Shown one piece after another: positions 48,029 to 57,697 of a stretch of DNA of 57,697 nt. Location: assembly GCA_040220235.1 (NCBI GenBank), contig JAVJTO010000085.1, one strand, 5' to 3'. The stretch's first letter is position 1, and the number at the start of each line of letters is the position of its first letter. The position numbers and the translations under genes are program-made. Below the pieces are notes generated by a model. It searched no databases. It was given only the letters and a program-made list of their open reading frames with translations, and was not told the origin of the DNA. The stretch comes from Coleofasciculus sp. B1-GNL1-01 (GTDB taxonomy: Bacteria; Cyanobacteriota; Cyanobacteriia; Cyanobacteriales; Coleofasciculaceae).

Positions 48029-49153
48029 TTATCTGTCATTGTTCAAGATGGCACGGCGGGCTAATTTGGTGTAAGTTTTGACGGTTTGGTAACGCATATC
48101 CAGATCATCTGCGATCGCGTTTAAGGATTCACCCATTTCTCGTCGGGCTAATATAGTCGCCCAGGTTTCGGCGATGTCTTGCGCCCGATTTCCTCCCTGG
48201 CGCTGGCGTTGGGCGAGAAACTGTTGGGTTAATTCGCTGATGCGTTCGGCTAATAGGGTTTCTATTGAGGGGAGGGCGGGGGTTTCGGGGGATAACCAGC
48301 CTAAGCGAGTTTGTCCTAAACCAAAGGGGGTTTTGTGTCCGGTGCCGCAGTAGGGGGCAAATTGGGCTAAGGTATGGAATAGTTGGCTAAATTCTGGGTG
48401 TTGGCTGGCACCTGAATCCAGTCCGAGGGCGATCGCACCTGTGAATCCGGTGACGACTCCTTTCTTTCCGGCTGCGACTTTCATCGATTCTAAACGGTGA
48501 CGCTGAATCACCACGTTTTCCTCTACCCAGTCTAAAAAGGCGGTTTGGTTAAAGGGGTGATCAGAAAAATCATTCCAGCGCCGCAAATAGCTGTGGAAGA
48601 GATTCGTGGGAACCGGTAAAGGAAAATGGTGTCCCTTGCGGCGAAAGCTGGTGGGGGTGAGGAAGCTGAGGCTTAGGGATTGGGGTAGGGTGGGGATTGG
48701 GGTGGATAAGTTCGGATACGTGGTTGGTGCTAAAGCGATGTGCCAACGGCTAATTTTGAGGACAGCACGACGTAATTTAATCATATCTGGCAGGTGATCA
48801 ACCCATTCGGCTAGCCATTGGCTTAGGGGTTGGTAAAGGGCGGTGATGTACCAACGGTAGGTTGTATTGGGTTTGAGTTTGAGGTTTTTTCCAGAGGTGA
48901 GGAAGTCTCCGTCTAAGCGGGAGAGGGTGAAGGGTTTCTCAGATTGACCATCATGGAGATAGGCGGAGAGTTCGGGGTTAGTTTGGCGAACTTGATCTAA
49001 GAACCAGGCGTGAAGTCCGACGGTGTATTGAGTATAGAGGGAGTCTGGGGCGTTGGCGGTTAATTCTAAGACAAGTCCGACTAATTCTGTATCCGCCGCC
49101 CAGGGATGGCGGGATGGAGGGGGTTGGGTTTGGCGGCGTTTGCGGGGTGCCAT
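48029..49153 (-). CDS. cas6: CRISPR-associated endoribonuclease Cas6 with C-terminal HTH extension
   Basis: GLHAWFL, LHD..EKPFTLS, FLTPTSFR, GFTG, Gly-rich loop GTGHKTPFGLG. Confidence 0.92.
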   Translation of the reverse strand: MAPRKRRQTQPPPSRHPWAADTELVGLVLELTANAPDSLYTQYTVGLHAWFLDQVRQTNPELSAYLHDGQSEKPFTLSRLDGDFLTSGKNLKLKPNTTYRWYITALYQPLSQWLAEWVDHLPDMIKLRRAVLKISRWHIALAPTTYPNLSTPIPTLPQSLSLSFLTPTSFRRKGHHFPLPVPTNLFHSYLRRWNDFSDHPFNQTAFLDWVEENVVIQRHRLESMKVAAGKKGVVTGFTGAIALGLDSGASQHPEFSQLFHTLAQFAPYCGTGHKTPFGLGQTRLGWLSPETPALPSIETLLAERISELTQQFLAQRQRQGGNRAQDIAETWATILARREMGESLNAIADDLDMRYQTVKTYTKLARRAILNNDR

Positions 49154-49382
49154 GATGGGGTGAATGCCGGATTTTTAAGGGGTTGCTCCTATATATATAG
49201 GGTAAACTGAGTTGTCTCAAACCTGTTTCATTAACTTCCCTGGCGAATTCAGCTCGGTTAAATGACGAGTAGCACTGTCTTCGAGCAATTGACGGATGAA
49301 GTTTGGATGTTGTGAGTTAATTAAATGTAACAACTCTCGATACAACCGACAAGCCGATGAGCCAATGAGGTTAGATCTAAAA

Positions 49383-49418
49383 GTTTCCATCCCCTTTCGG
49401 GGAAGTGAGTTTGTCAAG
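49383..49418 (-). CRISPR. single CRISPR repeat (probably the last repeat of an interrupted array): CTTGACAAACTCACTTCCCCGAAAGGGGATGGAAAC
   Basis: 36 nt, CCCC-GAAA-GGGG hairpin, 3' GAAAC end typical of cyanobacterial repeats; 229 bp upstream of co-oriented cas6; only one copy, so the 5' boundary is approximate. Confidence 0.75.
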
Positions 49419-49432
49419 GCTGCAACCTTAGT

Positions 49433-49506
49433 TGTCACTTGAACCATATCCTGTCCAAAGTGGAAGCATAAGCTGTCCCCAAACCTGTGGTCAATTTATG
49501 CTTCCA
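49433..49506. repeat. tniQ-proximal transposon end: 46-bp TIR (49433-49478) with two putative TnsB sites, plus an oppositely oriented site at 49489-49506
   Basis: TGTCACTTGAACCATATCCTGTCCAAAGTGGAAGCATAAGCTGTCC; GGTCAATTTATGCTTCCA. Confidence 0.85.
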
Positions 49507-49587
49507 GTGAGTAGGAGAGGTTAACTTGACTTGAACTGGAAACAAGTAGCTACCTGGAGAGAGACTTGGCAAATAACCTGATTAGAC

Positions 49588-50832
49588 CTAGGACTTTTTG
49601 ATTGTTTGTCGGTATAACCTGTAACGAGCCGAAATTTGGTGACACAAGTCAGGGAAAAATCGGGAAATATCTCCAGGATCATATCCAATAGTAGCAGCCA
49701 CTTGTTTGAGAGACTGCGGTGGTTCCAAGGACAAAGCTGCCTCTAAGAACATTTGTACTTTCACCCCATCAAAGCGCCGATTAGTTTTTCTGCGTTGTTG
49801 AGTGACAGGCAAAACCTTCAACGATAGGGGTTGATGTTTCATCACCTGTCCAGTGAGAACATCTTCTAAAGGAATAGAAAGACACCAACAGACTCTAAGG
49901 AGCAAACCTAATTGTGCCAGTGCCTGACCACATCGCCATTCTCCTGGTACGGAAGCACTCAGGTAGATTAACTCAGCAAAAGCTTTGGCATTACCGTTGG
50001 TAGCTTCTTGGATACATAAGTCAATGGCTAATGCGAGATTTCTGAAGGGTGGAGGAGACTGGAGAGCAGGTGCAAGCTCGATAATTTTTCCCACGGAGTA
50101 CACAACAAAAATCTGCCAGTCCCAATCGGGTTGCTCTACTGGGGAAGCGTCCACAGAGGTATCGCCATTCGTCAAAATTGAATTCACACCCAACCACTGT
50201 TGGCATCTAGAGCAGAAACCCGGTCGGGAATTCCACTCTAGAGGGTAGAGCAATCGCTGACAATGAGGACATTGATGCCATAAAACTTGTTGATGAAAAG
50301 GACAAGTTGTCACTACCTGGAGCGACCATAATAGAGGCTCGTAGATGGGTTTCCCACAACGCTCCCAATCGTCATAGCAGACGGGACACCAAGCCTTATT
50401 GGTACGCAGTAAACCTCGCGACGGTAAAACGTTAGCCCAACTTAACAAAGTCAGAAACCGTAACTGATGTTGCTTTGTTCGTGCTTCTAACACATGAACT
50501 GGCTCAGATGCCATAATTCCCATGCCATTCCAGGCTCCCGTATCGTTGAAGAAGACACGGAAAAACCATCGGGATAAACCTTGATGCTGATTGCCTTGAT
50601 ATCGACTGACTTGTGGAGCTACTTCTTGAGCTAACAAAATGCCCGTAGGCACCCGATGAGCTGCTGCTAACCGAGCCACATAACTGGTCAGACTTTCTAC
50701 CATAGGTGTTCCTACACCAATGGGTTCAAGAGGATGCAAGCGGCTGCGCTCTGGGATTGTTGTGGTTTTTGAATACCATAGTTGATGATTACTCCAGCTT
50801 TCAACTGACACTTGGAGCACCTCCGATGACAT
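49588..50832 (-). CDS. tniQ: TniQ/TnsD target-selector protein (414 aa)
   Basis: ESLTSYVARLA, WCPVC, CPFH, CPHC, CSRC zinc motifs, C-terminal HTH; start could be GTG near 50811. Confidence 0.9.
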   Translation of the reverse strand: MSSEVLQVSVESWSNHQLWYSKTTTIPERSRLHPLEPIGVGTPMVESLTSYVARLAAAHRVPTGILLAQEVAPQVSRYQGNQHQGLSRWFFRVFFNDTGAWNGMGIMASEPVHVLEARTKQHQLRFLTLLSWANVLPSRGLLRTNKAWCPVCYDDWERCGKPIYEPLLWSLQVVTTCPFHQQVLWHQCPHCQRLLYPLEWNSRPGFCSRCQQWLGVNSILTNGDTSVDASPVEQPDWDWQIFVVYSVGKIIELAPALQSPPPFRNLALAIDLCIQEATNGNAKAFAELIYLSASVPGEWRCGQALAQLGLLLRVCWCLSIPLEDVLTGQVMKHQPLSLKVLPVTQQRRKTNRRFDGVKVQMFLEAALSLEPPQSLKQVAATIGYDPGDISRFFPDLCHQISARYRLYRQTIKKS

Positions 50833-51994
50833 CCCGTTGAGGATTACGCTCTCCTGGACGACGTTTCTTGGTTTTCTTCTCTTTTTTGTTACCCGTAGAA
50901 CGGGTCGAGCTATTGAGCAAAGCTTCTGTTGCTGTTGATGGCTCCTTCACGGTTAATCCCAATTTTTGACGCAATCGACCCAGTTCGCTCTCCGATTCTA
51001 GTAGCGCTTTCTCGCCTTCTATCGCCTCAGTTGCCATCTGCATACATTTAGACACACTGGGAGCATAAGGTGTAAGATGTGCCAAGCTAAGAGTAGAGGC
51101 GGATTCTGCCAATGCTTTTCTCAAGGCTTGTGTCAGCCAATTCTTAACTATCCCTACACAACCGATACTGCGTTCATAGAAGTATTCCCAATGCTGCTCT
51201 AAATCAGGGGTTTCTAACAAGGGCATTTGGCAGGCAAAACTCTTGAGTACCCGTTTGAAATCTTTAACGTCCTGTGAGCAATCCGCTTGATAACGAGGAA
51301 AGTGAATATCTAGGCTGCGACGGCTCAATTGACCGCTTAAGTTCCTTAACTGTAGCAGTTCATAAGTACCAAAAAGTCCATGCCGGGTGGACGTGAAACT
51401 TGCCATTGACTGAATGGCATCCATTTGGTCTTGTTGTCTTCTTCCCGATGCCATTTTAGTGAAGCGCTGGGCTTCATCAACTAGAAATACAATTAATCTC
51501 CGTTGTTGAATAATCGCCGCTACATCTTCTCGTAAATCTGACAGGTTAGCTTTTGATTTAATTAGACGTTGAGAAGAGCCACTACCCTCAATTCGGCTAC
51601 TGCCAGTTCTGAGTTTATAATCAACGAAGGGGTCAGCCAAAGCTATCAAGACACTTTTGTAATAGTCTTTCCAGTCAAAAGACCCGGATTCAGGAGCGCG
51701 AGCTTCTACATAAGCAACAGGGATATGTCCACAATCAAGTTGTATGGCTCTGGAGTTCTGCTCTATGAGCACTTTCACAACTTGATGGAGTAAGGTTGTT
51801 TTCCCCACCCCAGTAGGGCCAAACAAAAAGATTAATGAAGCGCCTCCAGGATTATTGACGGCATCTATTACAGCTTCATACGCAATTTTTAGTCGCCTGT
51901 GTACTACCGTACAACTTTCAAAGTAAGCCAGTTTTTCTGCTGGATTGACGGCTAAAAGTTCTGGAGGAAAATTCTGGGAAGACGGCATTACCAA
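50801..51994 (-). CDS. tnsC: TnsC AAA+ ATPase
   Basis: Walker A GPTGVGKTT, Walker B FLVDEAQ, LFGTYEL, GQLSRR, SIGCVG. Confidence 0.92.
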   Translation of the reverse strand: MVMPSSQNFPPELLAVNPAEKLAYFESCTVVHRRLKIAYEAVIDAVNNPGGASLIFLFGPTGVGKTTLLHQVVKVLIEQNSRAIQLDCGHIPVAYVEARAPESGSFDWKDYYKSVLIALADPFVDYKLRTGSSRIEGSGSSQRLIKSKANLSDLREDVAAIIQQRRLIVFLVDEAQRFTKMASGRRQQDQMDAIQSMASFTSTRHGLFGTYELLQLRNLSGQLSRRSLDIHFPRYQADCSQDVKDFKRVLKSFACQMPLLETPDLEQHWEYFYERSIGCVGIVKNWLTQALRKALAESASTLSLAHLTPYAPSVSKCMQMATEAIEGEKALLESESELGRLRQKLGLTVKEPSTATEALLNSSTRSTGNKKEKKTKKRRPGERNPQRDVIGGAPSVS

Positions 51995-54684
51995 AACTCC
52001 TCATAAGGTTCAATTTCTTCCGAGTCAATCTCATCTCTATTAGGAGAGACTTCTTGACTTATAGGAAGTGAAAGGCACTCGGCGGCTGGAGGCTGTTCTT
52101 GAAGTCGCGAAATTTTTCCTCCATCAATTATTGCTAAAACCTCTTTGGCTTCTACATCCCGTAACCGTTGCTCTAAGATAACTTCTTGGGCTTCTGTACT
52201 TGCTAAAAATTCAGCTAGGGCTTTGGCTGTGATTGTAAATTGTTTGGAGTAATTCTTCTGCTGTTGACGCAACTGTTCACTAGCTACCATTATTTCTCGC
52301 TCTGAGTGACCCACTAAGCGGCTATAGTGCTGCGAGATGCAACTTACCCACTGACCTTTAATGTAAGCATAGGCAATCCCAGCATCATAGGGGTCATAGC
52401 GCACATTTACTTGGGTTTTTTCAATTTCCGGATTTCGGAAACTATTATGCCAATAGTAGATGTGGTTAATTTTGACTCCCTGATTGGGAATTACTTTGGC
52501 AGTTCCTTTGGGGGTCGTTGGTAGGGTCAAAATCCGGAAAGTTTCATCATAAGGAATCAGTTTGTGTGAGCGGAATCCGGTTTGCAACAAGCCATCTTCA
52601 AACGCCGCTCTTGGGCTTTGTCCTAGTGCCGGATGCTCCTTGTTGTCATAAAATTTATAAGCCCAATCGCATAGATTCTGATATAAACTTCCTAGAGTCC
52701 AGATGGCTAAATTACGAGGATTAACGCTTTTCGTCACAGCCCGATAATTCCTGTTAATTTGCGTATTTCCCCAGAGATTGTGAATGAACATGGTATTGGC
52801 TGTGCCGAACAAGCGCTCGCATACTGAACCAAATCGGGGTTTGGCGGCTGGTCGGGTTTTCTTTGTGCAAGAGTAAGCTGCCAGGAGCCGCTCGAAGTAA
52901 ACACTCATGAATTCTTTGGCTCCATCCACCACTATCGTGTCGGGCAATCGTCCATGACGATGGACACACTCGCGCATCACCATCATGCAACTACGATACG
53001 ACGGTGGGTCAAAGCACAGATAAACGGCTAGTATTCGTCGTGAGTAGGCGTCTGTTAGGAAGGTAGCCCAAGGGCGACCCAGATTGATTGATGTGTGGGA
53101 GCTAACTAACTCGATATCTAATTGTGTATGGTCAATATGGCAGATTTCAAAGGGTCGTTGTCCATGCCTGGGGGTGTTTACCTCTAGTTCCCAATAAAAA
53201 GGTTCGTGCTTGTAAGCGGCTCGGCGTCCTTGCCTGTTTACAGCCTGTTCGTAGTTAGATTTTTGCTGAATTTTTCGGACAAACGTTTTGTAGCTACAAG
53301 GAGTGATTCCCTGCTGAGAGCAGGCTCGTACCAGTGAACTATAAACGGCAAATTTTCCTTGTTGTTTGAGATTTAAATAGCTGTTATCAATGAATTCGTC
53401 TACGATTTTTTGTGTCGTTTGAGGCAATTTAGGTTGGTGGTTGCCTTTAGAGCTGACGCGGGGCAACAAGCCCACATAACCGCATCCATATTGCTCAACT
53501 GCGTTTCGCCACGAGCGCAACCAACGGCGAATTGTACGTGCTGAAACGACCTGATTTGAGGTTTGGAGTTCGCCCGTTAGGTAGGGAGAAATGATGGAAT
53601 AGCGGCGGTTGGCTTCTACACAATCATCAACACTCGCCTTGGCAAGGAGGTCATTGACTTCTCTAGAAGATGGGGATTGGATGACAACACCTGTTAACTC
53701 CCCCTGTTTTACTAATTCCAATAGGGCTTCGTTGGGCAGTTGGATGACTTTTGCCTCTTCATTGAGTAGGGCTGTATGGGTTTCTCCTCGATTGAGAATC
53801 GATAAGCTTTTTCCATTCCATACCACAGAAGAACCGGGTTTTAGATCAACTAAGTTGCGGGCTAATTCTAAGGTTGATTTTCCTCTCAACTTGGTTGTTT
53901 CGATTCGACAAGCTTTCTGATTAACCGGAAAGATTGGAATCTGTGTACCAAGTTGCGCTATGTTGACACCCCGCCAATTCACATTTAAATAATTTTGGGC
54001 AATTAGGGTATAAACCTCCTCACAGTTGTACCCCTCTTCTAGCAATTCACCTAAGGTAATTCCTGGATGAAGTTCCACCCGTGATATGATCTCGGCACAA
54101 ACTTTCTCTTCTACAGAAACCTGGGATGGGTGCAAGTAGTCTTCGAGAAAATGAAGATTATTTTGGAAAACCCAGTCAATTTCAGCGTTGCAACGGATGC
54201 GATAATATAATCCCAAACTTTGTGCTACTTCAACTCCTGGGGGACAGTGCCATTGACCTTCACCTTCTCGCACGTAACGAGCAGGCATTTTGACTGATAG
54301 TCGCACTAATTCATCCAGTGTTTTCCACTCTTCCCAACCAGCACAAGTCTGACGCAACACAAAGAAATCTGGGGTATGCAGGACTCCTACTTTCCGACCA
54401 CTCAGAGCAATGTAGCTCAGTTTGATGCCACTGGGTTGGTCGTAATATTCCAGTACATCTGGGTCATATTCCATCTCATAGATGCCTGCCAATTCGTTGT
54501 GGTGGCTCTCAAACTGAATCGTTACGCCCATTTTCCGGCTGGGGTAACGACCACTCACGTTCCCTGCCCTACTGCGTACCACACGCGACGGCGGCGAACT
54601 GCGTAACAGTTCGATGTATTTCCTTGTCGGTTCTGCCAAGCCTAACTGCTGACACCACCGCACAAACTGCTCGCCGTCCAGCAT
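51988..54684 (-). CDS. tnsAB: TnsA-TnsB fusion transposase
   Basis: N-terminal TnsA endonuclease (QFESHHNEL, YYDQP, HTPDFF, EEWK); C-terminal DDE integrase (HIDHT, VVDGAKEF, CERLFGT). Confidence 0.92.
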   Translation of the reverse strand: MLDGEQFVRWCQQLGLAEPTRKYIELLRSSPPSRVVRSRAGNVSGRYPSRKMGVTIQFESHHNELAGIYEMEYDPDVLEYYDQPSGIKLSYIALSGRKVGVLHTPDFFVLRQTCAGWEEWKTLDELVRLSVKMPARYVREGEGQWHCPPGVEVAQSLGLYYRIRCNAEIDWVFQNNLHFLEDYLHPSQVSVEEKVCAEIISRVELHPGITLGELLEEGYNCEEVYTLIAQNYLNVNWRGVNIAQLGTQIPIFPVNQKACRIETTKLRGKSTLELARNLVDLKPGSSVVWNGKSLSILNRGETHTALLNEEAKVIQLPNEALLELVKQGELTGVVIQSPSSREVNDLLAKASVDDCVEANRRYSIISPYLTGELQTSNQVVSARTIRRWLRSWRNAVEQYGCGYVGLLPRVSSKGNHQPKLPQTTQKIVDEFIDNSYLNLKQQGKFAVYSSLVRACSQQGITPCSYKTFVRKIQQKSNYEQAVNRQGRRAAYKHEPFYWELEVNTPRHGQRPFEICHIDHTQLDIELVSSHTSINLGRPWATFLTDAYSRRILAVYLCFDPPSYRSCMMVMRECVHRHGRLPDTIVVDGAKEFMSVYFERLLAAYSCTKKTRPAAKPRFGSVCERLFGTANTMFIHNLWGNTQINRNYRAVTKSVNPRNLAIWTLGSLYQNLCDWAYKFYDNKEHPALGQSPRAAFEDGLLQTGFRSHKLIPYDETFRILTLPTTPKGTAKVIPNQGVKINHIYYWHNSFRNPEIEKTQVNVRYDPYDAGIAYAYIKGQWVSCISQHYSRLVGHSEREIMVASEQLRQQQKNYSKQFTITAKALAEFLASTEAQEVILEQRLRDVEAKEVLAIIDGGKISRLQEQPPAAECLSLPISQEVSPNRDEIDSEEIEPYEEFW

Positions 54685-54737
54685 ATATTCCTTTGCCTAC
54701 GCAGCCATGAAATGATGTCTTCAGTTTATCAACAAAA

Positions 54738-54890
54738 GGACATCTTATCCTTCCAATTTCAACTTGTGGACAACTTATGGTTCTACCTAGCTGTTCAAGT
54801 ACCTGTTCTCCCGACGACAGCATCAGAGTTTTTACCTTGTTGGCGGACAGCTTATGCTTCCACTTTGGACAGGATATGGTTCAAGTGACA
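54738..54890. repeat. tnsAB-proximal transposon end: four putative TnsB sites (54738-54755, 54768-54785, 54845-54862, 54867-54884); TIR 54845-54890
   Basis: GGACATCTTATCCTTCCA, GGACAACTTATGGTTCTA, GGACAGCTTATGCTTCCA, GGACAGGATATGGTTCAA. Confidence 0.85.
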
Positions 54891-54982
54891 CAATCAATTG
54901 CCCATTCCCCATCTGCCAAGTGCTTCTCAAATTGCACCCGCCAAGTTTTCCCGCGCCAATCCTTAATCTCCAATTCCTTCAT
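54891..54982 (-). pseudogene. 5' fragment of a gene translationally coupled to the M23 gene and cut by the transposon end
   Basis: ATGA overlap at 54979-54982; reads MKELEIKDWRGKTWRVQFEKHLADGEWAID into the TIR, then stops. Confidence 0.55.
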
Positions 54983-56277
54983 GGCTGCTCACCTGTCAGA
55001 AACCATTGCAGCCAGCCACTTCTGACTCTCAACCAATTGCCAGAACTAGACGACTTAATCCGTAAGTCCAAATGTGGTCCCGTTGAGCCGCCACTGTTCC
55101 CTGTCCAGGCGATCGCTCTTTTTCTGTTGACTTTAATCTTTTGCCCCGGTTCAACTAAACACCGGGACAAGTGCAGCAGTTTAAACTGGAGTGTGGGGAA
55201 TTGCTCAGACGTGAATGTGGCATACAAGCCAGCCGCGTCACCTCTGGCACATTCGACCCAACCGTCAGCGATCGCATACAAAGCCGTCCCCGCTGGCGTG
55301 GCTAAGTCAACCCCTTGGTGATATTGACGCTTCCCTGAGATGGGGTGAATCCTCCACCCACGCGGCGATGTAACTTTATAGCCTGCGATGATGTCTCCCA
55401 GTTGAGGATTTTTCTGGAATTTAACATCCCATTTATAAATATGAGACTTGTTGATCTGATCTGGTGTTTTTTCTAGAGACTTACCGGAAAGGAGTGCGAT
55501 CGCTCTCCCTCGATGCTCCCTTGTCATCCGCTCAACGGCGCTATCTAAGGTATGATACCCGTCGCTGATACTTCCTTTGGCGTTGGGATGTCCAGCAAAT
55601 ACAGTAGAGTAAAGCTGTTTAAGTCCACCACCTTTAAACCCACGTTTAACCAAGTATCGCTCAACATAATCCATCTGCTCAACCTGGCTTTTATGGGCTA
55701 AGGCTTCTGATGTGGTTCCCAGTTCAGCCGCCGTGGAGGACATAAATTGAATAAGCCCGACGGCGCGTCCCCTACCTTTAACAACGGGACCTCTAATACT
55801 GGGGCTAAATGTTCCAGCAGTTTCAAAACTAATCAGTGTGGCTAAGTCAATGGGGTCAGCGTTGATATTAGCCGCGACTTGTTTGATTTTCTGTGCAAAT
55901 GGGGTTAGGTGTAGAGACGTTGCATGCAACGTCTCTACAGGTTTAGCTGAATCGGATTCCGGTTTGGATTCCGGTTGAATCGCTGTTTCCTGGACTTGTT
56001 CTACACCATCTTTAAACCAATCAAAATTGGGACTATAGTCTTGACTGTTTGCCAGGTTGAAACTGATTAATGCAGTGGCTGCGATCGCTAATATCTGATT
56101 CCTCAATCTAGATTTTTCTAGAGATTTAGGGGAATCATCGATCGCTCGTAATAACTGACTGACTCGGCGGTCAATTTTCCAGAGGTTCGTTCTCTTGAGG
56201 GTTGCTAGTTCCTGCTCCAGCTTCCGAATTTCCCTCTGTAGCTGGTTGGTGCTTAGGGTTTGTGTTGCTTGTGTCAT
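54979..56277 (-). CDS. cell-wall hydrolase: lysozyme-like domain plus M23 peptidase
   Basis: LISFETAGTF..AVGLIQF..QMDYV lysozyme-like motif; HQGVD and GPHLD M23 zinc motifs; N-terminal coiled coil and TM. Confidence 0.85.
   Translation of the reverse strand: MTQATQTLSTNQLQREIRKLEQELATLKRTNLWKIDRRVSQLLRAIDDSPKSLEKSRLRNQILAIAATALISFNLANSQDYSPNFDWFKDGVEQVQETAIQPESKPESDSAKPVETLHATSLHLTPFAQKIKQVAANINADPIDLATLISFETAGTFSPSIRGPVVKGRGRAVGLIQFMSSTAAELGTTSEALAHKSQVEQMDYVERYLVKRGFKGGGLKQLYSTVFAGHPNAKGSISDGYHTLDSAVERMTREHRGRAIALLSGKSLEKTPDQINKSHIYKWDVKFQKNPQLGDIIAGYKVTSPRGWRIHPISGKRQYHQGVDLATPAGTALYAIADGWVECARGDAAGLYATFTSEQFPTLQFKLLHLSRCLVEPGQKIKVNRKRAIAWTGNSGGSTGPHLDLRIKSSSSGNWLRVRSGWLQWFLTGEQP
55910..55939. 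repeat. perfect 30-bp REP-like palindrome inside the coding sequence
   Basis: TGTAGAGACGTTGCATGCAACGTCTCTACA (encodes VETLHATSL). Confidence 0.9.
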
Positions 56278-56464
56278 TGGTTAGTAGATGCCAGGTGAGT
56301 AAAAGCAAGCTAATCGCTAAGATGAGTAATGCGAAGCGCTGAAGTTTTATTCGTCGCACTTCCCGCTGGAGCGATCGCAAGTGCTGAAGTAATGCCCTAC
56401 GGCTGGGTTGTGTCTCTCCCTGATTTTTTCTCGTTACAAACTTCTTGAATGGTTTGAGTTCCAT
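56171..56464 (-). CDS. small hypothetical single-TM protein overlapping the hydrolase gene start
   Basis: ATG 56464; basic N-terminus followed by FALLILAISLLLLTW. Confidence 0.45.
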   Translation of the reverse strand: MELKPFKKFVTRKNQGETQPSRRALLQHLRSLQREVRRIKLQRFALLILAISLLLLTWHLLTNDTSNTNPKHQPATEGNSEAGAGTSNPQENEPLEN

Positions 56465-56738
56465 AACAAAAAAGGCAAAAAAGGCAACAGGCAACAGGCA
56501 ACAGTTCCTACTTTCTGATGGGTTGCTGTTGGGAGTATTTGGGTAGGGAGTAGGAGGAAGGAAGGAAGGAAGAAACCAAGCGTGTTTTCCATATCGCTGA
56601 TTGGTGCCAGCTTTTTACCTATCCTGGCTTTATGAGTGCCACGCTATGTCTCGTTTAAACCTCCTCTCATCCTTTAAACCCTAATGGCAACCGCTATATC
56701 TGTTGCCTGTTGCCTGTTCCCTGTTGCCTCCTGCTTTC

Positions 56739-57697
56739 TTACAGTTCCTGGGCTAAAGTAATTGTTTGGGCGATTACGTTGGCTAAATCAGGATGTTCCA
56801 CAACATAGCGATCGCTCCCTCTCAAACTGAGGATTAAGTCTCGTCCAAAGCGGAACGCGCCACCGCCCCCAACGATTGAGGTTTCTATCTCCGGAGGTGT
56901 ACAGTCGGTGATGATTTCGGCAATCTCGCCAATGTACCATTCATGGGCGGTATCAATTGCATCGGCGATGGGGATGGGTTCGGGTTCCCCCTGGGGCTGA
57001 TAATAGTCCTCACAGTTATTTACAGCGGTGATAAACTGGGGGTCTTCTGGGTCATTAATCCCGGCTTCTTCTGCGACCCATTCATAATATAAGGATGTGC
57101 CTTTGCCATCAAAGGACTGACTGCGGTTATCGTCAAAGAATCCATCAGGGTCAATAAAATCGCACAACAGGGTACGATAGCCGATATCGTAGCAGGCTTG
57201 CCAGGAATCATTGGGTTTAGATTCTGCGATCGCTAACTGACGATAAGCCCCAATGTGATAGCCTTCTGGCACTACCTGTAATGTCTGAATCGTGGCTGAT
57301 TTGCGTCCTTGCGGCGTAGACCAAGTGAGGGACTGGCTTAGGGCTTTCTTGGCGGCTGTCTCCTGTGCTTTGAAGTTTCCTGGGGTGAAGAATAGGCTCA
57401 GGCTGAGATGGATGTCCTCACCGTTTCCTAATCCCAGTTGCTCGAGTGCTAGAATAACTCGCAGCTTGAGATTGTCGGTTTTATCCCCGTGCAGTCCGGA
57501 CTGGCTGGTGAGTGTGGCTCCTTTGCGATCGCTGGTGTAGGTTTTACCGCGATAGGTGATTTCTATGTTCCCTTTAACGGTTGAGTTTCGGGTTCTTACT
57601 CGTGATTTGCCACGGGGTATCTCGGTGAGATAGTTGAGCGTGCGCTGGATGGCGAGGGCGGGTTGATCCACGATTTCCCCTAGTAAAGCGACTTTTT
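56739..57697 (-). CDS. ParM/StbA-like actin-fold ATPase (5' end beyond the window)
   Basis: VVPEG, DIGYRT, VGGGGA, DLANV actin-fold motifs; frame stays open to the window edge (KVALLGEIV...). Confidence 0.7.
   Translation of the reverse strand, partial: KVALLGEIVDQPALAIQRTLNYLTEIPRGKSRVRTRNSTVKGNIEITYRGKTYTSDRKGATLTSQSGLHGDKTDNLKLRVILALEQLGLGNGEDIHLSLSLFFTPGNFKAQETAAKKALSQSLTWSTPQGRKSATIQTLQVVPEGYHIGAYRQLAIAESKPNDSWQACYDIGYRTLLCDFIDPDGFFDDNRSQSFDGKGTSLYYEWVAEEAGINDPEDPQFITAVNNCEDYYQPQGEPEPIPIADAIDTAHEWYIGEIAEIITDCTPPEIETSIVGGGGAFRFGRDLILSLRGSDRYVVEHPDLANVIAQTITLAQEL

What the first reader, a model, noticed from the sequence alone, without database searches (positions are those of the whole stretch)
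49419..54982. Mismatched flanks: no target-site duplication, array missing, other end truncates a gene
Seen: the 5 bp outside the ends are TTAGT (49428-49432) and CAATC (54891-54895), so the 5-bp duplication expected of Tn7-family insertion is absent. No further repeat follows the 54890 end. That end instead cuts an ORF that starts with an ATGA overlap on the M23 gene stop, after 30 codons. Inference: the two flanks come from two separate insertion events, one in a CRISPR array and one in a plasmid/phage-like gene. These were joined by recombination between copies, a cointegrate, or an adjacent deletion or inversion. The transposon may therefore have fused a mobile replicon into the CRISPR locus and separated cas6 plus the last repeat from the leader and remaining spacers.
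Basis: partly seen in the sequence, partly recalled or inferred. Interest (0 to 1): 0.8.

Follow-up and report, generated by a model that had tools for sequence, protein, structure and literature searches.

The report
Likely misassembly across CRISPR-targeting transposon
A known jumping gene that inserts into bacterial CRISPR immune arrays has several identical copies in this genome, and its mismatched surroundings here are most likely two different copies stitched together by the assembly software, with a smaller chance of a real deletion of the immune genes.

Summary
A 5,458-bp TnsAB-TnsC-TnsD element (49433-54890) has flanks TTAGT/CAATC, one CRISPR repeat on its left and a gene cut after 30 codons on its right. 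It belongs to the published CRISPR-array-targeting Tn7 family (TnsD 90% identical to the reference).

The join is probably an assembly chimera (about 0.7):
- A second copy (contigs C68/C125) has a perfect AGCCC duplication, so it is not the reciprocal.
- The contig overlaps (140 and 139 instead of 141) imply further junctions outside this bin.
- The same assembly demonstrably mis-joined another repeat (C90), checked against 4 of 5 sister genomes.
- 135 of 344 contig ends have no continuation in the bin.

A real deletion between two copies stays open (about 0.2). About 10 kb holding the array rest, leader and type III-D core is absent from the assembly. Also, 4 of 11 family copies in near-closed genomes lack the duplication, one of them cutting two different genes. 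A larger element has no support. The source reads were not available, so the join could not be phased.

The parts
48029..49153 (-). cas6 (374 aa) of the chromosomal type III-D locus
   Evidence: Pfam PF10040 and TIGR01877 above cut-off; same place in sister genomes
49217..49357 (-). 3' remnant of an Imm30 ORF (149 aa in sisters); deletion junction at 49357
   Evidence: tblastn covers residues 102-149 only; PF15565 on the sister protein; junction printed
49358..49382 (.). 25 bp between the deletion junction and the repeat, probably a spacer or trailer remnant
   Evidence: differs from the sister sequence at this point; its nature is inferred
49383..49418 (-). single 36-bp CRISPR repeat, ending GAAAC on the - strand; the TnsD target
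   Evidence: only full copy in the assembly; same repeat in sister arrays; starts 50 bp from the transposon end
49419..49432 (.). 14-bp spacer remnant ending in TTAGT (left flank)
   Evidence: not found in 8 sister genomes at up to 2 mismatches
49433..49587 (.). left end (tnsD side) with terminal inverted repeat and three TnsB-site-like 18-mers
   Evidence: its first 140 bp recur at the start of contig C68
49588..50832 (-). tnsD/tniQ (414-aa ORF as listed), short form without the C-terminal extension of tRNA-targeting TnsD
   Evidence: PF06527; 90.1% to TnsD on NC_019740.1; tRNA-adjacent TnsDs run 58-68 residues further
50801..51994 (-). tnsC AAA+ ATPase (397 aa)
   Evidence: AAA_22 and TniB Pfam hits
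51988..54684 (-). fused tnsAB (898 aa); open frame; TnsA D106, E119, K121 and TnsB D518, D587, E623 present
   Evidence: catalytic roles are assigned from motifs (inference)
54685..54890 (.). right end (tnsAB side) with four TnsB-site-like 18-mers and the terminal inverted repeat
   Evidence: its last 139 bp recur at the end of contig C125
54891..54982 (-). 5' 30 codons of a 94-aa gene of no known family, cut by the element; right flank CAATC at 54891-54895
   Evidence: no Pfam or NCBIfam hit for the intact paralog
54979..56277 (-). M23 peptidase gene of a mobile block
   Evidence: PF01551; paralog on C127 at 89% identity
56739..57697 (-). actin-like (ParM-type) gene, cut by the contig end; 363 aa in G005
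   Evidence: no Pfam hit; NCBIfam FcmB E 6.7e-12, below cut-off; PDB 9rmi CorM E 5e-10

Best explanation
The element is an intact, recently active array-targeting Tn7-like transposon. TnsD recognises the GAAAC end of a CRISPR repeat, or a look-alike, about 50 bp away; TnsC and fused TnsAB then insert it, most likely by cut-and-paste. The genome holds at least three identical copies: one in the type III-D array, one in a 94-aa gene at the end of a mobile M23/actin block, and one in a chromosomal gene (C68/C125). A short-read assembly with 141-bp overlaps collapsed them into one 5.4-kb stretch. Branches that shared flank bases with a sibling lost their tiny connecting piece, so the only lone left branch (array) and the only lone right branch (mobile block) were fused. 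The reciprocal junctions lie on contigs outside this bin. Shown: the junctions, the second copy, the overlap pattern and the control mis-join. Inferred: the third copy, the pruning mechanism and the missing contigs.
For: Second copy with a perfect AGCCC duplication; its two flanks are contiguous in 5 of 5 sisters. The commonest overlap is 141. Of 41 contig ends that run into another contig's interior, 0 keep 141 and 24 have a visible sibling end sharing flank bases. By that rule C68 (140) needs an unseen left junction ending in [not C]C, which CAATC fits, and C125 (139) needs an unseen right junction starting AG[not C]. Control: the IS inside C90 has the same detached branches on both sides. 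Its left flank shares a 10-bp duplication with C157, not with its own right flank, and 4 of 5 sister loci join C90-left to C157. 135 of 344 ends have no continuation in the bin. The IS end on C18, where the III-D locus resumes, has no duplication partner among 29 motif matches, as expected if one contig is missing. TnsA D106 is present; in McCAST the wild type gave 0/150 cointegrates and D106A 149/150.
Against: A plain TTAGT right junction does not fit the 139 overlap. It needs a partial or absent duplication (precedent: one '3 bp only' row and 7 'degraded' rows of 19 called in the paper's table) or a fourth copy. 17 of 41 detached ends show no sibling, so the rule is not airtight. About 10.4 kb of sister DNA (array rest, leader, csx3, cas10, csx10 and others) is missing from a bin rated 100% complete that keeps contigs down to 1.8 kb. 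The locus shows two real deletions inside contigs. Real duplication-less copies exist in near-closed genomes (4 of 11). The name of the assembler (MEGAHIT) and its pruning of short pieces are recalled, not from a call.
Confidence: 0.7

Rival explanations
1. Real deletion. One copy sat in the array and a second, in the same orientation, near the end of a mobile block integrated to the right. Recombination between them, or a transposase-made adjacent deletion, removed the array rest, the leader, the III-D core and about 190 bp of the block, leaving one hybrid copy.
For: One event would explain why both reciprocal junctions and the cas10 region are absent. In G007 the block ends just after the 94-aa gene and joins chromosomal genes, so it can integrate. 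Precedent: in G423 (4 contigs) one of three identical copies cuts a phosphatase-like gene at one end and an integrase gene at the other, with no duplication and no reciprocal among the other two copies. The locus is already decaying.
Against: With only the hybrid and the AGCCC copy, the assembler should have broken the contig at both ends with 141-bp overlaps; 140 and 139 need extra unseen junctions or chance losses. The block is not beside the III-D locus in the sister stretches fetched, and 6 of 8 sisters have no match to it. The control repeat with the same signature is a mis-join.
Confidence: 0.2
2. Real cointegrate or inversion: a mobile replicon was fused into the CRISPR locus, and the reciprocal hybrid (CAATC left, array right) exists but lies outside the bin.
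For: The 140 overlap fits an unseen CAATC left junction equally well under this model. The paper notes that the related PmcCAST TnsAB was reported to form cointegrates.
Against: It needs both a rare rearrangement and the same missing contigs as the artefact model. The TnsA catalytic motif is intact, and McCAST TnsAB is cut-and-paste. No reciprocal swap was seen among the three G423 or four G574 copies.
Confidence: 0.07
3. A larger element: the true right end lies further right, and the M23/actin block is cargo.
For: The contig ends at 57697, so DNA beyond it could not be read directly.
Against: No end-like motif in 54891-57697 (best 30-mer has 12 mismatches), and only four end copies genome-wide. 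The same 5,458-bp unit is bounded by a duplication at C68/C125 and in L061. The family is described as cargo-free. The block is intact without the transposon on C127 and in two sisters.
Confidence: 0.03

Closest known systems
CRISPR-array-targeting Tn7-like transposons of cyanobacteria (Chacon Machado and Peters 2025, PMC11837452), Allocoleopsis franciscana subgroup
   Same: Fused TnsAB, TnsC, one short TnsD, no cargo, no cas genes inside. TnsD is 90.1% identical to the one on NC_019740.1. The left end lies 50 bp from the repeat start, in the same orientation. Multiple identical copies and non-array insertions occur. The supplementary table lists 5,458-bp Coleofasciculus elements with 898-aa TnsAB, one with duplication '(-)' and a CRISPR-repeat target; I did not test whether any row is this record.
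   Different: Here the assembled copy joins an array flank to a non-array flank. The AGCCC copy sits at a site with no target motif in either orientation (96% and 92% of random sites score as well), whereas the paper says non-array sites keep the motif.
tRNA-targeting TnsAB elements, including type I-D McCAST (Hsieh and Peters, PMC9881144)
   Same: Fused TnsAB with the TnsA aspartate at position 106; 5-bp duplication on insertion.
   Different: No cas genes, no second TniQ, no tRNA target. TnsD lacks 58-68 C-terminal residues found in tRNA-adjacent relatives.
Chimeric contigs across collapsed repeats in short-read de Bruijn assemblies
   Same: A repeat far longer than the 141-bp overlap, detached side branches, and mismatched duplications; shown directly for the IS in C90 of this assembly.
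   Different: For this element the true partner contigs are not in the bin, so the mis-join is inferred and not shown.

Membership tests
Array-targeting Tn7-like transposons (PMC11837452) | Fused TnsAB, TnsC and a single TnsD | tested here: met
Array-targeting Tn7-like transposons (PMC11837452) | TnsD about 50-90% identical to A. franciscana TnsD | tested here: met
   90.1% over 414 aa
Array-targeting Tn7-like transposons (PMC11837452) | TnsD lacks the roughly 60-aa C-terminal region of tRNA-targeting TnsD | tested here: met
   7 of 7 relatives at 32-42% identity extend 58-68 residues past the alignment end (5 of 5 of these checked lie beside a tRNA); the 7 closer relatives extend 0-8 residues
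Array-targeting Tn7-like transposons (PMC11837452) | CCCH zinc finger in TnsD | tested here: met
   CPVC at 149 and CPFH at 177
Array-targeting Tn7-like transposons (PMC11837452) | Insertion in a spacer, left end a fixed 40-50 bp from the repeat motif, repeat intact | tested here: met
   repeat start at -50; best motif match at -48 to -53 in 12 relatives
Array-targeting Tn7-like transposons (PMC11837452) | Minimal element, no cargo, cas genes outside | tested here: met
   5,458 bp filled by three genes; no distal end
Array-targeting Tn7-like transposons (PMC11837452) | Array continues beyond the right end with a 5-bp duplication | tested here: inconclusive
   not seen in the window, but the path through the repeat is unphased; the paper's table has 8 of 19 called rows without a full duplication
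Array-targeting Tn7-like transposons (PMC11837452) | TnsD-dependent transposition into repeats | not testable with these tools
   the authors could not reconstitute it in E. coli
CRISPR-associated transposons (CAST, e.g. type I-D McCAST) | Cas effector genes and array between the ends | tested here: not met
   only tnsAB, tnsC and tnsD lie between the ends
True transposon-mediated rearrangement (deletion or cointegrate) | Both junctions on one molecule | not testable with these tools
   no listed run holds the whole stretch (best share 0.65); no listed contig piece bridges a junction
True transposon-mediated rearrangement (deletion or cointegrate) | Reciprocal copy with swapped flanks (cointegrate or inversion) | tested here: inconclusive
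   not in the assembly: four end copies only; but the bin lacks many graph neighbours

The most novel reading that the evidence does not exclude
Array-targeting Tn7s are not harmless passengers. Repeated insertion of identical copies, followed by recombination or adjacent deletion, removes spacers and whole cas operons; here it would have deleted the leader and the type III-D interference core and fused the locus to a mobile block. The duplication-less but 100% identical copies in near-closed genomes (4 of 11) would be scars of the same process, not decayed duplications. Four literature searches turned up only the founding paper on this family, which argues for little harm.
Probability: 0.22. 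Interest if true: 0.55.

Novelty: not a real feature. Interest (0 to 1): 0.22.

Why it matters
As a probable chimera, it is a warning: flank logic across multi-copy elements in binned short-read assemblies cannot be trusted, and contig-overlap lengths give a cheap test. If the join is real, it would be a direct case of a CRISPR-targeting transposon disabling the host's type III-D system, against the published view that these elements do little harm. The side result, duplication-less identical copies in near-closed genomes, makes that question testable in cultured strains whatever the truth of this window.

Tried and rejected
Raw-read phasing: 21 runs were listed and none held the whole stretch. 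Four were laid; their contigs cover the element (X18 5,427 bp with 3 substitutions and 3 gaps; X20 about 95%), but no listed piece bridges an end, and the loose-end table was cut, so this gave no verdict.

Pattern scans found nothing: the terminal repeat in JGI metagenomes and in IMG/VR, the spacer-repeat junction in metagenomes and in 8 sisters.

The right block had no match among plasmids, and its actin-like protein had no relative in viral contigs, so 'plasmid or phage' is not shown; 'integrative mobile block' rests.

Rejected: C68/C125 as reciprocal partner (perfect own duplication, contiguous in sisters). Rejected: decay of the duplication by point mutation in G423 and G574 (copies have 0 differences). 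Rejected: a distal end.

Dropped before the duplication count: L062 (left end at the contig edge), L116 (one end found), L114 (no end found). L061 (match) and L063 (mismatch) are draft contigs and were kept out of the near-closed tally. In the C90 control, L088 gave no hit at the thresholds used and is counted as a miss. Two look-ups of earlier scan findings returned nothing.

Full report
Observation. The window is contig C85 of a 172-contig, 8.66-Mb cyanobacterial assembly. A 52-bp inverted repeat bounds 49433-54890. Between the ends lie tnsD, tnsC and a fused tnsAB, all on the minus strand. The flanks are TTAGT and CAATC. The 36-bp repeat at 49383-49418 has no second full copy in the assembly. 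On the right, an ORF that begins at 54982, overlapping the M23 stop, matches a 94-aa gene for 30 codons and then enters the transposon end. That gene is intact on C127 and in G005 and G007.

What the element is. TnsD is 90.1% identical to the TnsD on plasmid NC_019740.1, the reference of the array-targeting Tn7 family of Chacon Machado and Peters (PMC11837452; I read parts 1-4 of 6 of the main text, through the methods, and supplementary table 1 in full; the other supplements and the figures were not seen). It lacks the 58-68 residue tail of tRNA-adjacent TnsDs and keeps the zinc-finger motifs. The repeat starts 50 bp from the left end; the best motif match lies at -48 to -53 in 12 relatives. 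The TnsA and TnsB catalytic motifs are present (roles inferred from motifs). In the related McCAST, wild-type TnsAB gave 0 of 150 cointegrates and D106A gave 149 of 150 (PMC9881144, passages only). Near-identical copies occur in other samples. The paper's table already lists 5,458-bp Coleofasciculus elements of this build. The element itself is known.

The left side. Seven same-genus loci carry this cas6. In five, homology to the window stops at 49357, and four show the repeat within 1.5 kb. The sister order is cas6, Imm30 ORF, array, a conserved leader-like stretch, csx3, cas10, RAMPs including csx10 and csx7: a type III-D locus. In this genome two thirds of the Imm30 ORF is deleted inside the contig, and about 10.4 kb of the G003 locus has no counterpart. 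The distal part lies on C18, which ends in an IS and has itself lost two more genes internally. So the locus is decayed, and its middle is missing from the assembly.

The right side. The M23/actin-like block has a paralog on C127 (86-89%), where a tyrosine recombinase lies on the same contig, and matches in 2 of 8 sisters. In G007 it ends just after the 94-aa gene and joins chromosomal genes, so it behaves as an integrative block. No plasmid or viral match was found. The missing half of the cut gene, read from the paralog, has a target-like 12-mer at -50; 2.6% of random sites score as well, and it was one of four non-array flanks scored, so this is weak. It fits an independent insertion into this gene.

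Other copies. C68 begins with 140 bp of the left end and C125 ends with 139 bp of the right end. Their flanks are AGCCC and AGCCC, and they are contiguous in 5 of 5 sisters. This is a clean second insertion, not the reciprocal product. Only these four end copies are in the assembly.

Why the join cannot be trusted. The commonest overlap between contigs is 141 bp, which cannot phase a 5.4-kb identical repeat. Of 41 contig ends that run into the interior of another contig, none keeps 141 bp and 24 have a visible sibling end that shares flank bases. I read this as: branches that share flank bases meet in a tiny connecting piece that was lost, so the lone remaining branch runs through. That mechanism and the assembler's identity are inferred or recalled. 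By this rule C68 has an unseen sibling ending in [not C]C, which CAATC fits, and C125 has one starting AG[not C]. So at least three left and three right junctions existed, some outside the bin; 135 of 344 ends have no continuation in the bin. The other repeat that a contig crosses with many detached branches on both sides, an IS in C90, is a proven mis-join: its left flank shares a 10-bp duplication with C157, and 4 of 5 sister loci join C90-left to C157.

Results against this reading. TTAGT does not begin with AG, so the array copy's right junction must carry a partial or absent duplication, or a fourth copy is needed. 17 of the 41 ends have no visible sibling. A 10-kb chromosomal contig missing from a bin rated 100% complete is not the default. 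Real cases also exist. Among 11 copies in near-closed records (G423 three, G574 four, G737 one, G767:C1 one, NC_019740.1 two), 7 have a 5-bp duplication and 4 do not (G737 read from the printed flanks). Copies within G423 and within G574 are identical, so the duplications did not decay by point mutation. Three of the four have the array on both sides. The fourth cuts a phosphatase-like gene at one end and an integrase gene at the other, with no reciprocal among its siblings. I could not check those assemblies against reads. The paper's table rows 'degraded' and one '3 bp only' among 19 with a call; the words duplication, deletion and recombination in its main text do not discuss this.

Weighing. 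My odds are a judgement, not a computation: chimera of at least three copies 0.70, real deletion between copies 0.20, real cointegrate or inversion with the partner outside the bin 0.07, larger element 0.03. The source reads were not among the runs served, so phase is untested.

Novelty. The element is an already described kind. The join that the finding is about is most likely not a real feature. Searches for 'array-targeting' with Tn7 and transposon, and for 'Tn7-like' with 'adjacent deletion' and 'target site duplication', returned only the founding paper and nothing, respectively; other papers were seen as listings only. The part worth keeping is the hint that this family does delete DNA next to itself, which would qualify the published view that it is harmless to CRISPR defence. 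Interest 0.22; 0.55 if the deletion here proves real.

Noticed in passing
L105, L106, L112, L113 (G423:C1, G574:C5, G737:C1): Four of 11 family copies in near-closed records have no 5-bp duplication, although sibling copies in G423 and G574 are 100% identical. L106 cuts a phosphatase-like gene at one end and an integrase gene at the other. This points to deletions beside or between copies.
   Followed up: partly
G000:C68/C125 (L074, L075): The second copy disrupts a conserved chromosomal ORF of about 150 aa, 0.5 kb-scale, near a VWA-like gene, at a site with no repeat-like motif in either orientation; this suggests an untargeted insertion pathway.
   Followed up: partly
G000:C90:14966-16544: Proven chimeric join across an IS in the same assembly; the true neighbour of the left flank is C157.
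   Followed up: yes
window 49357 and G000:C18:30300-30900, 33162: The type III-D locus is decayed apart from the transposon: the Imm30 ORF is cut, a RAMP gene and a 205-aa gene are missing inside C18, and an IS sits where homology to sisters ends.
   Followed up: partly
L063:1930 and 6565: A relative with array on both sides but flanks TGACG/ACTAG, and only 12 bp to the next repeat, suggesting a small adjacent deletion.
   Followed up: no
window 54891-57697, G000:C127 and C36: Two paralogous copies of an M23/actin-like/94-aa block share their upstream end; in G005 it continues into sequence matching C36. It is an uncharacterised integrative element with different neighbours in each genome.
   Followed up: partly
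G000:C82:94165-94190: An isolated 26-bp match (96%) to the transposon terminal repeat, without the terminal TGT; possibly a remnant.
   Followed up: no
L022-L026 (G002, G003, G005, G007, G008): Five of 8 sisters carry short matches to the element's ends (80-94%) without its genes: other Tn7-like ends or miniature derivatives.
   Followed up: no
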